Below are positions 52,888-55,800 of a stretch of DNA of 64,000 nt, piece by piece. Source of the stretch: Escherichia coli (GTDB lineage: Bacteria > Pseudomonadota > Gammaproteobacteria > Enterobacterales > Enterobacteriaceae). Position numbers: made by a program. Where the stretch lies: the NCBI RefSeq assembly GCF_003334355.1, contig NZ_QOWP01000004.1; one strand, 5' to 3'. How positions within the stretch are numbered: the first letter of the stretch is position 1; every line of letters starts with the position of its first letter.

Positions 52888-55800
52888 TAAGCGTTATCGC
52901 TCGCGCATACCCGATTACGCCCGGCCTGTTTAGCGAGATAAAGTCGACGGTCAGCCAGTGACTGGAGTTGTTCAAAATCATAATCACCGGTTTCCTCGCT
53001 GCTGCTTACCCCCAGCGAGGCACTGATGCGTATCGTCGTACTCTTAGCAATCAACATCTCTTTTTCATTTAATTTCAGTCGAATACGTTCTGCGACCTCC
53101 GCAGCCTCCGTCAGACTCGCGCCTGGTAGAATCACACAAAACTCCTCACCACCGACCCGCCCGGCAATGTCCTGCGCACGCAAGGAACTGCTAATTAATC
53201 CGGCAGCATGAGAAAGAACACGGTCGCCCGCCTGATGACCAAAGCGGTCATTAATCGCTTTAAAATGGTCAAGGTCGACCTGAATGACAGAAAAAGGATG
53301 TTGGTGTGTCTGACACAATTTGGCGAGCGGACGGGCTTTTTCGAACAGCGCGCCACGATTATATAAACGGGTTAAGGTGTCGTGCCACGCCTGCCACTGC
53401 AACGAGCTTTGCAGAACATACATGTTGCTAACCATCCGGCGAATCACATACCAGGAGATGAGTAACATGGTGGTAAAGAGCGCCCACAGCAGGGTTAATG
53501 CAATGCTGATACTGCCGAAATCGCCGCGCACGCCTTCGCTTAACGTATGGACGCGCACCAGCACACCGTCGAAATGGTCCAGACGTTCCCAGCTAACATA
53601 GCGACTGTCCATACGAATGCCGCCCCGCGTGTCATGTTCCATTGCCTGCGCCAGCAAGGCCAGTTCACGAGGATCAAAAATATTCCCTGTTGGATGGTCA
53701 GGATTGGAAGAGGTCAAAAATCTCAGCTTACTGTCATAGAGCTGATACTCACCATCGAGGTTTTTATCGATGGCGTTTCTTAAAAATTGCTGCATAGTAC
53801 GTACGGGAATACTCATCCCCAGCACGCCATACCAGTAGTTATTACTGTCTACCGGAACACTGACGGTAACCTGCGGTTCAGTATTGCTGGCGTGTTCCGG
53901 TTGCGAAGTGAACCAGCGTACCGCGCGGTGACGATTTTCTCGTTGTGAATGGCCGATAAACCAGGGTTGGGTGACATAGCCGTAATAACGCGTTGGAACA
54001 TTGCGCGTAAACAAGGTCGGCTGCGTCGAAACGTAAAATCCGGCACGCGAGACATACATCGCCTGTTCAACCATCGACGAGGAGTTGTGCGCCAGTCGCA
54101 GCAAGTAACCAACTTCCAGTGCAGCGGTAATTTCATTGTCGAGGCTTTCATTTTCGCGAGACAGGAGATTTCCCTCGCTGACTAATGCATCCGATACGCC
54201 ATTGACTGGCAGGGTGCGTCGTCGGTTGAGTTCGATTTTCCAGGCGTGCTCGTCGCGATGCTGTTCGAACTCGGTTACAGCATCACGCAGAGAGGTGAAA
54301 TCCAGTGGCGCTACGAGAGCTTCGCGCATGCCATTACGCAAAAAGATCAGTTTGTCGACGTTATACTGCAAATGCTTATCGAGCGCGTTGGCTACGTTTT
54401 CCAGATGATTACGCTGGCTGGAGATATAGGCATCTTCCAGCACCACTACTTCACGCCAGGTGAGCAAGGTGGAAAAAAGCAATACCACGATAAAGCAGAG
54501 ATTAACGACATGACCAGGCCCCAGGCGGCGTGCGAGTTTTTTCAACCAGCTCTGGTTTTCCATTTTTGTCTCGTGCTGCACCCTGACGACTCCCAACCTG
54601 CTTTTTTATGATTCTGGCATAACCTGGCGATAGCGTACCGCAAAACAGCGATAATTTTATAATGGTGGCATGATAAGACGCGACAGACATCGATAGTTTT
54701 ATAACGTAGGCATGATAAGACGCGATAGCGTCGCATCAGGCAATTCAGTGCAGACACTGGCACACCCGACCGGATGCGACGTGAGCGCCACATCCGGTCG
54801 GGTGTTAATGATACCCTTTCAAACTTCTTCCGCAGGACGACTCCCCTCCCCTGGAACAAGCTCGGTTTCATGAAAAGCTTCCCGCTTGACCCCGTAACCG
54901 TCATACCAACGACACTCAACCATACCGCTGGAGTATCCAGTGACAATCATCCGCGGGCCGCCCTCTTTAACCGTAACTTCCTCACTAACCATAAAGCTCA
55001 TACTCGCCTCCTTTTTTCGAGTGAAACTTGTTCACCTTAGTTGAAGATGGCGAATTTTGCATAATAGCCTGTGCGAGTATTAATGTGCCTGACCGCGCAT
55101 TTTCGCTACGGCTTTCACTCCCAGCACCACTATGCCGCCGATGATAAATCCAAGAATCAGATTTAAAACAGTCGGTAATATCATCGCCACCACTGCACTT
55201 TGCTGCCCGGCGAAATGTTCAATGGCGTGATGCAGCGGCGCAATTCCATGTACCACAATCCCACCGCCGACGAGGAACATCGCCAGCGTGCCTACAATTG
55301 ATAACGCTTTCATCAGCCAGGGCGCAATGATCAATAACCCTTTACCTAATGCCTGCATCAGCGCGCTGGATTTTTCCGCCAGCCAATACCCCAGGTCATC
55401 AATCTTAACGATAACCCCTACCAGACCGTAGACGCCCACGGTCACTACCAGCGCGATGCCTGAAAGCACCAGCACCTGATTAAGCAACGGCGCTTCGGCC
55501 ACAATCCCCAGCGTGATGGCGACGATTTCCGCAGACAATATAAAATCGGTACGAATCGCCCCTTTTATTTTGTCCTTTTCAAACTTCAGCGGATCCTGCG
55601 CCGCCAGCTTCTCCAGACGCTGCTGACTCTGCGCCGGATCTTCTTTATGTTTACGCGCCTCCAGCATATGCAGCACTTTCTCTACCCCTTCAAAGCAGAG
55701 AAACGCGCCGCCAATCATCAACAGTGGCGTAATCGCCCACGGGATAAACGCACTGATGATCAGCGCCAGCGGCAACAGAATCACTTTATTGATCAGCGAT

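What the first reader, a model, noticed from the sequence alone, without database searches (positions are those of the whole stretch)
54667..54804. REP/BIME palindromic clusters in two intergenic regions
Between dgcQ and yodC there is a duplicated ggcatgataagacgcga motif and a perfect 14-bp-arm inverted repeat (cacccgaccggatg…catccggtcgggtg). A second cluster with canonical REP sequence lies between fliA and fliC (28964-29061). These are typical E. coli repetitive extragenic palindromes, which can bind gyrase and IHF and stabilise mRNA, and are not novel elements.
Basis: partly seen in the sequence, partly recalled or inferred. Interest (0 to 1): 0.15.

Follow-up and report, generated by a model that had tools for sequence, protein, structure and literature searches.

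The report
Ordinary E. coli REP/BIME repeat clusters
Both sites are ordinary members of the well-known E. coli REP/BIME family of repeated palindromes; the yodC-dgcQ one is a decayed, strain-variable copy, and the fliC one lies inside the known small RNA FliX.

Summary
The motif ggcatgataagacgcga occurs twice, as part of a 42-bp tandem repeat (54645-54728). The 14-bp perfect inverted repeat is the core of a 20-bp hairpin (54762-54805).

The REP/BIME interpretation holds, with refinements.
- 54706-54742 is a canonical Z2-type REP: 35/37 to the published consensus, with GTAG, and dispersed in every E. coli genome.
- The hairpin descends from a Y-type REP but has lost the GTAG tag and the stem mismatch, and it exists only at this locus.
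- The first motif copy is a half-REP remnant.
- Together they form a decayed BIME-2-like unit. It matches the Rfam naRNA4 model (a Y+Z2 unit) at E about 6e-7, below the gathering score.

The locus is dimorphic: 1216 of 5426 complete E. coli genomes carry this long allele and 4140, including K-12, carry a shorter remnant. Other Escherichia species keep an intact Y+Z2 unit here. Other genera have a plain intrinsic terminator after yodC instead.

The most likely role, inferred only, is as a 3'UTR hairpin that stabilises yodC mRNA and limits read-through into dgcQ.

Verdict: already known, low interest.

The parts
54762..54805 (-). Y-REP-derived hairpin in the yodC 3'UTR. It has a 20-bp stem (two G.U pairs on the yodC-sense strand) and a 4-nt loop, and starts 13 nt after the yodC stop codon. 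It has no GTAG, no stem bulge and no following U-tract.
   Evidence: dG -41.1, z -9.0; 25/35 to the Y consensus; full-length copies only at this locus, in 1215 genomes; orthologous to canonical Y REPs in other Escherichia; no terminator-like site found.
54743..54761 (-). Linker between the Y-derived hairpin and the Z2 REP. About 13 nt of the sequence between the two units align as an insertion relative to the naRNA4 model.
   Evidence: cmscan alignment; alignment with other Escherichia.
54706..54742 (+). Canonical Z2-type REP, GTAGGCATGATAAGACGCGATAGCGTCGCATCAGGCA. GTAG is at 54706-54709 on the + strand, so the unit is inverted relative to the Y-derived unit.
   Evidence: 35/37 to the published Z2; at least 40 places per genome in all 5426 E. 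coli genomes, cap reached; imperfect hairpin dG -14.8, z -3.2.
54664..54686 (+). Half-REP remnant: the left arm of a second Z2 unit, with GGTG in place of GTAG and the right arm lost. This is the first copy of the duplicated motif and the only Z2 remnant retained in K-12.
   Evidence: does not fold (z -0.25); 29/37 to Z2 with gaps.
54645..54728 (.). 42-bp tandem repeat, 1.9 copies, 86% identical. It is probably the residue of a two-unit BIME array like those still present in E. whittamii and strain E69, after loss of the second Y unit.
   Evidence: comparison with L010 and L012.
54819..55001 (-). yodC CDS (60 aa, DUF2158 family). It is the upstream gene whose 3'UTR holds the cluster.
54608..54622 (-). 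TTATGCCAGAATCAT, conserved across genera about 40 nt upstream of the dgcQ GTG start. It is a candidate extended -10 element of the dgcQ promoter and lies downstream of all the REP material.
   Evidence: Conserved in Escherichia, Citrobacter and Salmonella sequences. The promoter role is inference only; the consensus scan did not call it.
28962..28996 (-). Canonical Y-type REP in the fliC 3'UTR, with GTAG on the minus strand at 28996-28993.
   Evidence: 33/35 to the Y consensus; hairpin dG -22.2, z -5.3.
28997..29032 (.). 36-nt linker between the two fliC REPs. It contains ATTCAATAAATTG (29009-29021), a 12/13 match to the IHF consensus. This is the BIME-1 / RIP type of arrangement.
   Evidence: match present but at chance frequency; near-threshold Rfam ES036/CssrF match at 28999-29040, 34.7 bits against a gathering score of 37.6; BIME-1 definition in PMC3333891.
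29033..29062 (+). Short Z-type REP, GTAGGCCTGATAAGCGCAGCGCATCAGGCA, inverted relative to the Y unit.
28908..29101 (-). fliX, the sigma-28-dependent Hfq-binding sRNA processed from the fliC 3'UTR. It contains both REPs. The 3' ~100 nt (FliX-S) holds the Y REP plus the terminator.
   Evidence: K-12 annotation of ncRNA fliX b4827; 97% identical alignment; PMC10578931.
28908..28930 (-). Intrinsic terminator shared by fliC and FliX: CCCCGCCACCGGCGGGG followed by UUUUUU on the minus strand.

Best explanation
**Identity of the yodC-dgcQ cluster (54645-54805).** It is a decayed, strain-variable BIME-2-type REP cluster in the 3'UTR of yodC. It has three parts:
- a Y-type REP that has been perfected into a 20-bp hairpin and has lost the GTAG tag and the stem mismatch that the REP transposase TnpA-REP needs;
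- one intact, inverted Z2-type REP;
- the left half of a second Z2.

**History.** The array arose in the Escherichia ancestor at the place where other Enterobacteriaceae have the yodC intrinsic terminator. It was amplified to two units in some lineages and then eroded by internal deletions. The result in E. coli is two alleles: this long one (about 22% of complete genomes) and a shorter remnant (about 76%, including K-12).

**How it most likely works (inferred, not shown).** Transcribed from the yodC promoter, the hairpins act as 3'UTR elements. They would block 3'-to-5' exonucleases and so stabilise yodC mRNA. They would also attenuate read-through, partly with Rho since there is no U-tract, into dgcQ, which has its own conserved promoter just downstream. 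Because the hairpin begins 13 nt after the stop codon, it may also dampen yodC translation.

**The fliC cluster (28962-29062).** It is a Y + long-linker + short-Z pair (BIME-1/RIP type) that forms the structured core of the known sRNA FliX.
For: **Shown**
- Z2 unit 35/37 and fliC Y unit 33/35 to the published consensus (PMC2817692 Table 1).
- The Z2 unit is dispersed in every E. coli genome.
- naRNA4, which models one Y+Z2 unit of REP325, hits 54709-54799(-) end to end at 43.3 bits, E = 5.6e-7.
- The orthologous position in six other Escherichia lineages carries Y + linker + inverted Z2. Five of them give an naRNA4 match at E <= 0.01, scoring 49.5-61.4 bits, with E. whittamii above the gathering score; MOD1-EC7003 gives none. 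There are two tandem units in E. whittamii and E69.
- Allele counts are 1216 long and 4140 short out of 5426 genomes.
- 49 of 74 non-Escherichia loci have a CGCCCGG-loop-CCGGGCG hairpin right after yodC, 46 of them followed by a T-run. None of the 6 Escherichia loci do.
- The hairpin is maintained across Escherichia: 87.6% of cells paired, and 6 of 20 pairs changed on both sides.
- fliX annotation and alignment.

**From the literature**
- GTAG and the stem mismatch are required for TnpA-REP binding and cleavage. BIME-2 copy number varies between strains (PMC3333891; PMC3479197).
- A REP between tandem genes acts as both a partly Rho-dependent terminator and an upstream-mRNA stabiliser (bioRxiv 10.64898/2026.03.23.713779).
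- REPs fewer than 16 nt from a stop codon lower translation (PMC12306157 section 8, citing Liang 2015).
- FliX-S includes one REP (PMC10578931).
Against: - No transcript, 3'-end or expression data were available for this strain or locus, so every functional step is inference.
- The same preprint reports that REP effects are context-dependent and that terminal REPs do not generally lengthen mRNA half-life.
- The naRNA4 hit is below Rfam's gathering score.
- The hairpin fails three of the defining REP features. Its REP ancestry rests on orthology and a 25/35 match.
- Double-sided changes in a DNA palindrome can arise from template-switch mutation rather than selection on RNA structure. The shuffle control is only modest (6-24 of 500).
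- Which E. coli allele is ancestral was not resolved. No E. coli genome retains the two-unit junction.
Confidence: 0.85

Rival explanations
1. The 20-bp hairpin is simply the yodC transcription terminator, a modified descendant of the ancestral intrinsic terminator, and not a REP. The neighbouring REP is incidental.
For: It occupies the position where 49 of 74 other genera have a conserved intrinsic terminator. Its outer stem CACCCG/CGGGTG resembles the terminator stem CGCCCG/CGGGCG. In L007 and L009 the hairpin is still flanked by an A-tract and TGTTTT.
Against: There is no U-tract after the stem in the window, and the scan found 0 terminator-like sites. The inner 32 nt match the Y REP, and the whole Y+Z2 architecture aligns to the naRNA4 model. 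Orthologues in L009 and E69 unit 1 carry the canonical GGATAAGGCG...CGCCGCATCC core, with its stem mismatch intact. The two readings are compatible if a REP replaced the terminator stem.
Confidence: 0.1
2. The cluster works at the DNA level, as a BIME-2 gyrase site or topological insulator, or as a TnpA-REP substrate that is still mobile, rather than as an RNA element.
For: BIME-2 arrays bind and are cleaved by gyrase, and REPs bind Pol I (statements in PMC2817692 and PMC3333891). The Z2 unit keeps GTAG and its mismatches, so it could still be recognised by TnpA-REP. Copy number differs between lineages.
Against: Only one intact REP remains. The Y partner lacks GTAG and the bulge, and loss of either abolishes TnpA-REP binding in vitro. 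The two mismatches in the hairpin become G.U only on the transcribed strand, which favours an RNA-level reading. Nothing here tests protein binding.
Confidence: 0.15
3. The repeats are functionless decaying junk. The dimorphism is neutral and reflects only deletion-prone palindromes.
For: Both E. coli alleles are deletion derivatives. REP effects are variable genome-wide. The half-REP does not fold.
Against: A strong hairpin is kept 13 nt after the yodC stop in both alleles (-41.1 and -25.3 kcal/mol) and in every Escherichia lineage examined, with changes on both sides of pairs, even though the canonical terminator was lost.
Confidence: 0.3

Closest known systems
E. coli BIME-2 / REP325-type units (Y + Z2 palindromic units; Rfam naRNA4, RF02564)
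   Same: A Y-type and a Z2-type unit lie in inverse orientation with a short linker, between tandem genes in a 3'UTR. Copy number differs between lineages. The unit aligns end to end with the naRNA4 model.
   Different: The Y unit has lost GTAG and the stem mismatch and gained a longer perfect stem. About 13 nt between the two units align as an insertion relative to the model, and the score is below the gathering threshold. Only one and a half Z2 units remain, and the hairpin is single-copy.
BIME-1 / RIP element (Y + L linker with IHF site + Z1)
   Same: The fliC 3'UTR cluster has a near-consensus Y, a 36-nt linker with an IHF-like motif, and a short inverted Z unit, as a single copy (definition in PMC3333891).
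   Different: The IHF match (12/13) is no better than chance, and binding was not tested. I could not check the Z1 assignment against a printed Z1 consensus; it is inferred from the short loop and the BIME-1 arrangement.
FliX sRNA (fliC 3'UTR-derived, sigma-28 regulon; Melamed et al. 2023)
   Same: Window 28908-29101(-) aligns over the full length of K-12 fliX at 97% identity with the same terminator, and contains both REPs.
   Different: There are a few substitutions outside the REPs. Expression in this strain was not examined.
Rho-independent terminator of yodC in other Enterobacteriaceae
   Same: It sits in the same position just after the yodC stop, is a GC-rich hairpin, and has a similar outer stem.
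   Different: The window hairpin has no U-tract, its core is REP-like, and it starts 13 nt rather than 1-6 nt after the stop.

Membership tests
E. coli REP (palindromic unit): element 54706-54742 | Conserved 5' GTAG tetranucleotide at the foot of the hairpin | tested here: met
   GTAG at 54706-54709 on the + strand. Feature as defined in PMC3333891 and PMC3479197.
E. coli REP (palindromic unit): element 54706-54742 | 30-40-nt imperfect palindrome with internal mismatches, matching a y/z1/z2 consensus | tested here: met
   35/37 identical to the published Z2. The fold shows two internal mismatches, dG -14.8.
E. coli REP (palindromic unit): element 54706-54742 | Dispersed, high copy number in the genome | tested here: met
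   At least 40 places per genome (cap reached) in 5426 of 5426 genomes.
E. coli REP (palindromic unit): hairpin 54762-54805 | Conserved 5' GTAG tetranucleotide | tested here: not met
   CCCG or ACCC occupies the GTAG position on either strand. At the same first unit it is also degenerate in the other Escherichia: GCAG, ATAG, CCAG, CCAA.
E. coli REP (palindromic unit): hairpin 54762-54805 | Two-base mismatch (bulge) in the stem, required for TnpA-REP binding | tested here: not met
   AA opposite GC is replaced by GU opposite GC, giving a fully paired 20-bp stem on the sense strand.
E. coli REP (palindromic unit): hairpin 54762-54805 | Match to the y consensus | tested here: inconclusive
   25/35. 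The cmscan alignment to the Y half of naRNA4 has high posterior probability. The orthologues are canonical Y units.
E. coli REP (palindromic unit): hairpin 54762-54805 | Dispersed, high copy number | tested here: not met
   Full-length matches occur only at the orthologous site, in 1215 genomes. Elsewhere there are only 28-nt core matches at E = 4.
E. coli REP | Binding and cleavage by TnpA-REP (RAYT), and binding of gyrase or Pol I | not testable with these tools
   Needs biochemistry.
BIME-2 (yodC-dgcQ cluster) | y and z2 units in inverse orientation separated by a short linker | tested here: met
   The Y-derived unit is on the minus strand and Z2 on the plus strand, separated by 54743-54761.
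BIME-2 (yodC-dgcQ cluster) | Tandem copies whose number varies between strains or lineages | tested here: met
   Two units in E. whittamii and E69, one in the other four lineages examined (including E. albertii), one and a half in the window, and remnants in K-12. Allele counts 1216 and 4140.
BIME-2 (yodC-dgcQ cluster) | Reaches the curated score of the closest covariance model (Rfam naRNA4, gathering score 59.5) | tested here: inconclusive
   43.3 bits, E = 5.6e-7, below the gathering score. The E. whittamii orthologue scores 61.4, above it.
BIME-1 / RIP (fliC cluster) | y + long L linker carrying an IHF site + z1, as a single copy | tested here: inconclusive
   Y 33/35, a 36-nt linker and a short Z unit are all present. 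The IHF consensus matches 12/13 at 29009-29021, but such matches occur at chance frequency, 56 observed against 64.7 expected.
FliX sRNA | Sequence identity with K-12 fliX, position directly after the fliC stop, and a shared intrinsic terminator | tested here: met
   97% identity over the whole K-12 feature 2001912-2002106. The terminator is at 28908-28930.
Intrinsic (Rho-independent) terminator: hairpin 54762-54805 | GC-rich stem-loop followed directly by a U-tract | tested here: not met
   The tail is GUGCCAGU, and 0 terminator-like sites were found in 54450-55150.

The most novel reading that the evidence does not exclude
In the Escherichia ancestor a Y-type REP replaced the stem-loop of the yodC intrinsic terminator, between its A-tract and T-tract. 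It was then exapted: its transposase-recognition features were lost while the stem was lengthened and perfected. The two E. coli alleles (a 20-bp hairpin plus a Z2 REP, or a 14-bp mini-hairpin) would then set different levels of yodC mRNA stability and read-through into the cellulose-regulating diguanylate cyclase gene dgcQ. That would be a natural example of REP turnover tuning a c-di-GMP gene without changing a promoter or a coding sequence.
Probability: 0.2. Interest if true: 0.3.

Novelty: already known. Interest (0 to 1): 0.12.

Why it matters
It matters little for discovery. REP/BIME elements have been known since the 1980s, and both sites fit the family.

Three modest practical points follow.
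1. K-12-based REP catalogues would miss the yodC-dgcQ cluster, because K-12 carries only remnants there. About one in five E. coli genomes carries the fuller allele next to dgcQ, a regulator of cellulose and biofilm.
2. The locus gives a clean series of REP states: terminator, then REP, then amplification, then decay. This could serve studies of how REPs are domesticated as 3'UTR elements.
3. Anyone annotating the fliA-fliC spacer should label it as the sRNA FliX rather than only as a repeat.

Tried and rejected
- **Rfam at gathering thresholds** gave no family at either site. Only the permissive search exposed the sub-threshold naRNA4 and ES036 matches.
- **The consensus terminator and promoter scan** of 54450-55150 found no terminator and no minus-strand promoter in the spacer. 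The intrinsic-terminator reading of the hairpin was therefore dropped.
- **An IHF consensus search** found the expected site in the fliC linker, but at chance frequency, so it is not used as evidence.
- **A search for an E. coli genome that still holds the two-unit junction** seen in E. whittamii found none. The idea that both alleles are reciprocal deletions of a two-unit array, and the question of which allele is ancestral, remain open.
- **My first labelling of the long Z unit as Z1**, from memory, was wrong. Nunvar et al. identify this sequence as Z2.
- **The K-12 RefSeq record** shows no repeat features at either locus, including the undoubted fliC REPs. Absence of annotation there therefore says nothing.
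- **Papers I could not obtain:** Liang et al. 2015, Liang and Deutscher 2016, Gilson et al. 1991, and the supplement of Ton-Hoang et al.. The less-than-16-nt rule is cited second-hand, and I could not check whether yodC was on their list.
- **Chance palindrome or chance repeat** was rejected on the shuffle z-scores.
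Full report
**1. The observation**

The window is 100% identical to E. coli ATCC 8739 at both sites. The main site is the spacer between yodC (54819-55001, minus strand) and dgcQ (52887 to about 54581, minus strand). It therefore lies in the yodC 3' region, upstream of dgcQ.

The motif ggcatgataagacgcga is at 54667-54683 and 54709-54725. The two copies are part of a 42-bp tandem repeat (54645-54686 and 54687-54728, 86% identity).

The 14-bp perfect inverted repeat (54763-54776 and 54791-54804) extends to 20-nt arms (54762-54781 and 54786-54805). On the + strand two positions are A.C mismatches. On the minus strand, which is the yodC-sense RNA, they are G.U pairs. This gives an uninterrupted 20-bp stem with a 4-nt loop, -41.1 kcal/mol, z = -9.0.

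The REP tail motif CTTATCMGGCCTAC (up to 2 mismatches) occurs three times in 64 kb against 0.39 expected.

**2. What the pieces are**

The published E. coli REP sequences are Y = GTAGGacgGATAAGgCGttCACGcCGCATCcGGCA and Z2 = GTAGGcatGATAAGaCGcgcCAgCGtCGCATCaGGCA (PMC2817692, Table 1). Against these, one search gives the following.
- 54706-54742 (+) is 35/37 identical to Z2, including GTAG.
- The hairpin on the minus strand is 25/35 to Y, with CCCG where GTAG should be.
- The first copy of the duplicated motif is only the left arm of a Z2 unit and does not fold (z = -0.25).

The Z2 unit has at least 40 similar places in every one of 5426 complete E. coli genomes. The hairpin has full-length matches only at the orthologous site, in 1215 genomes.

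REP features essential for recognition by the REP transposase are the 5' GTAG and a two-base stem mismatch (PMC3333891; PMC3479197). The hairpin has neither.

The closest curated covariance model is Rfam naRNA4. It models one Y+Z2 unit of REP325. It aligns end to end with 54709-54799 (-) at 43.3 bits, E = 5.6e-7, below its gathering score of 59.5. About 13 nt between the two units align as an insertion.

**3. Related sequences**

A scan of one genome per species with YodC returned 80 loci. Six other Escherichia lineages were recovered: E. albertii, E. whittamii, MOD1-EC7003, E1V33, SCPM-O-B-8794 and E69. All of them have, 12-20 nt after the yodC stop, a Y-type REP hairpin, a linker of about 24 nt and an inverted Z2 REP. 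E. whittamii and E69 have two such units in tandem.

In five of these six lineages the site scores 49.5-61.4 bits with naRNA4, with E. whittamii above the gathering score. MOD1-EC7003 and the K-12 site give no match at E <= 0.01.

The window allele aligns as unit 1 (Y-derived + Z2) followed by the right half, in yodC-sense orientation, of a second Z2. The K-12 allele has a 13-nt deletion in the centre of the Y hairpin, leaving a 14-bp stem at -25.3 kcal/mol, and lacks one arm of the Z2.

Across complete E. coli genomes, 1216 carry the long allele and 4140 the K-12-type allele. No genome keeps the E. whittamii two-unit junction. I could not decide which E. coli allele is older.

Some first-unit Y hairpins (L009, E69 unit 1) keep the canonical AA/GC mismatch. 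The window, E1V33 and E. whittamii unit 1 have GT instead, which removes the bulge. Across these sequences the 20 pairs are 87.6% paired and 6 pairs show changes on both sides. The slid controls give 28-42%. This shows the hairpin is maintained, but it does not separate an RNA-level constraint from a DNA-level one.

**4. An unexpected piece of history**

Outside Escherichia, yodC is followed within a few bases by a conserved intrinsic terminator, AAAACGCCCGG-loop-CCGGGCGTTTT. This holds in Citrobacter, Salmonella, Enterobacter, Kosakonia, Klebsiella, Lelliottia and others. A strict pattern finds the hairpin in 49 of 74 loci, 46 of them with a T-run, and in 0 of 6 Escherichia loci.

In L009 and L007 the Y REP sits between an A-tract and TGTTTT(GCTG), as the terminator stem does in Salmonella. 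In the window the outer stem CACCCG/CGGGTG resembles CGCCCG/CGGGCG. My inference is that a REP replaced the terminator hairpin in the Escherichia ancestor and that the U-tract later decayed. This is suggestive, not proven.

**5. How it most likely works**

Nothing here measures function, so this section is inference from context and literature.
- The cluster lies between tandem genes, in the 3'UTR of the upstream one.
- It lies upstream of a motif, TTATGCCAGRAT, that is conserved across genera about 40 nt before the dgcQ start. This is probably the dgcQ -10 region.
- A recent study of REP325 shows a REP in this configuration acting both as a partly Rho-dependent attenuator of the downstream gene and as a stabiliser of the upstream mRNA. 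Genome-wide, upstream/downstream expression ratios are higher at REP-containing tandem pairs, but the effects are variable (bioRxiv 10.64898/2026.03.23.713779).
- The window hairpin has no U-tract and no terminator-like call. Any termination would therefore be Rho-assisted, or the hairpin would act mainly as an exonuclease barrier.
- The hairpin starts 13 nt after the stop codon. This is inside the less-than-16-nt range reported to lower translation of the upstream gene (PMC12306157 section 8, citing Liang et al. 2015).
- yodC appears in a table of sigma-S ChIP-seq targets (PMC4447067).

**6. The second cluster**

28962-28996 is a Y REP (33/35) with GTAG on the minus strand. 29033-29062 is a short Z-type REP on the + strand. 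They are separated by a 36-nt linker. This is the BIME-1/RIP arrangement as defined in PMC3333891. The IHF-like motif at 29009-29021 is a 12/13 match, but matches of that quality occur at chance frequency in the window.

In K-12 it is annotated as ncRNA fliX (b4827). The window aligns to the K-12 fliX region at 97% identity over 226 nt. This places FliX at 28908-29101 (-), directly after the fliC stop at 29105-29107, and ending at the fliC terminator.

FliX is a sigma-28-dependent, Hfq-bound sRNA processed from the fliC 3'UTR. It lowers flagellin, S10-operon and flagellar gene expression. Its ~100-nt form, FliX-S, 'includes one of the REP sequences downstream of fliC' (PMC10578931). By position, that is the Y unit.

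**7. Comparison and verdict**

Both clusters belong to the known REP/BIME family. The yodC-dgcQ one is BIME-2-like and partly decayed. The fliC one is BIME-1-like and embedded in a known sRNA.

It fails the GTAG, bulge and dispersal tests.

The kind of element and its likely roles are already known. The allele dimorphism and the replacement of the terminator by a REP are small additions. Interest is low (0.12).

Noticed in passing
window 28908-29101 (-): The fliA-fliC 'intergenic' REP cluster lies wholly inside the sRNA gene fliX (fliC 3'UTR; K-12 b4827).
   Followed up: yes
L011, L013-L020, L023-L028 and many others, about 1-40 nt after the yodC stop (locus coordinates ~1684-1720): A strongly conserved intrinsic terminator, AAAACGCCCGG-loop-CCGGGCGTTTT, follows yodC in most non-Escherichia Enterobacteriaceae. 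In all Escherichia it is replaced by a Y-type REP hairpin.
   Followed up: partly
window 54608-54622 (-): TTATGCCAGAATCAT is conserved from Escherichia to Citrobacter and Salmonella about 40 nt upstream of the dgcQ GTG start. It looks like an extended -10 (TGc CAGAAT). The consensus scan did not call it.
   Followed up: no
window 54604-54620, 54655-54671, 54697-54713: There are three copies of TTTTATRAT...GGCAT, spaced 51 and 42 bp apart. The first overlaps the conserved putative dgcQ -10 region and the other two adjoin the Z2 tails. GCGATAGCGT is also repeated, at 54627 and 54722. This may be an older, third degenerate repeat unit, or chance.
   Followed up: no
L003 (E. coli AST205, NZ_AP043614.1) 680-1279: In this genome similarity to the window ends 37 bp upstream of the annotated dgcQ start, at window ~54618. 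An IS1A transposase gene begins about 55 bp further on. This indicates an IS1 insertion within the putative dgcQ promoter region.
   Followed up: no
window 28880-29120: Only 3503 of 5426 complete E. coli genomes hold at least 80% of this fliC 3'UTR/FliX segment. The rest match only through dispersed REPs. The FliX region therefore seems to vary along with the fliC (H-antigen) allele.
   Followed up: no
window 28999-29040 (+): There is a near-threshold Rfam match to ES036 (CssrF) sRNA, 34.7 bits against a gathering score of 37.6, covering the linker between the two fliC REPs. That family probably models BIME-1 linkers.
   Followed up: no
window 510-587 (+), 51791-51877 (-), 60280-60369 (+), 18814-19113 (-): Rfam gathering-level hits elsewhere in the window: C0465 RNA, DsrA, RseX and three tRNA genes.
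   Followed up: no
L021, L022, L029, L031-L033, L042, L045, L055 (Citrobacter freundii-group loci), downstream of yodC: These loci have neither the conserved terminator nor a recognisable dgcQ start after yodC, so the gene neighbourhood differs in this group.
   Followed up: no
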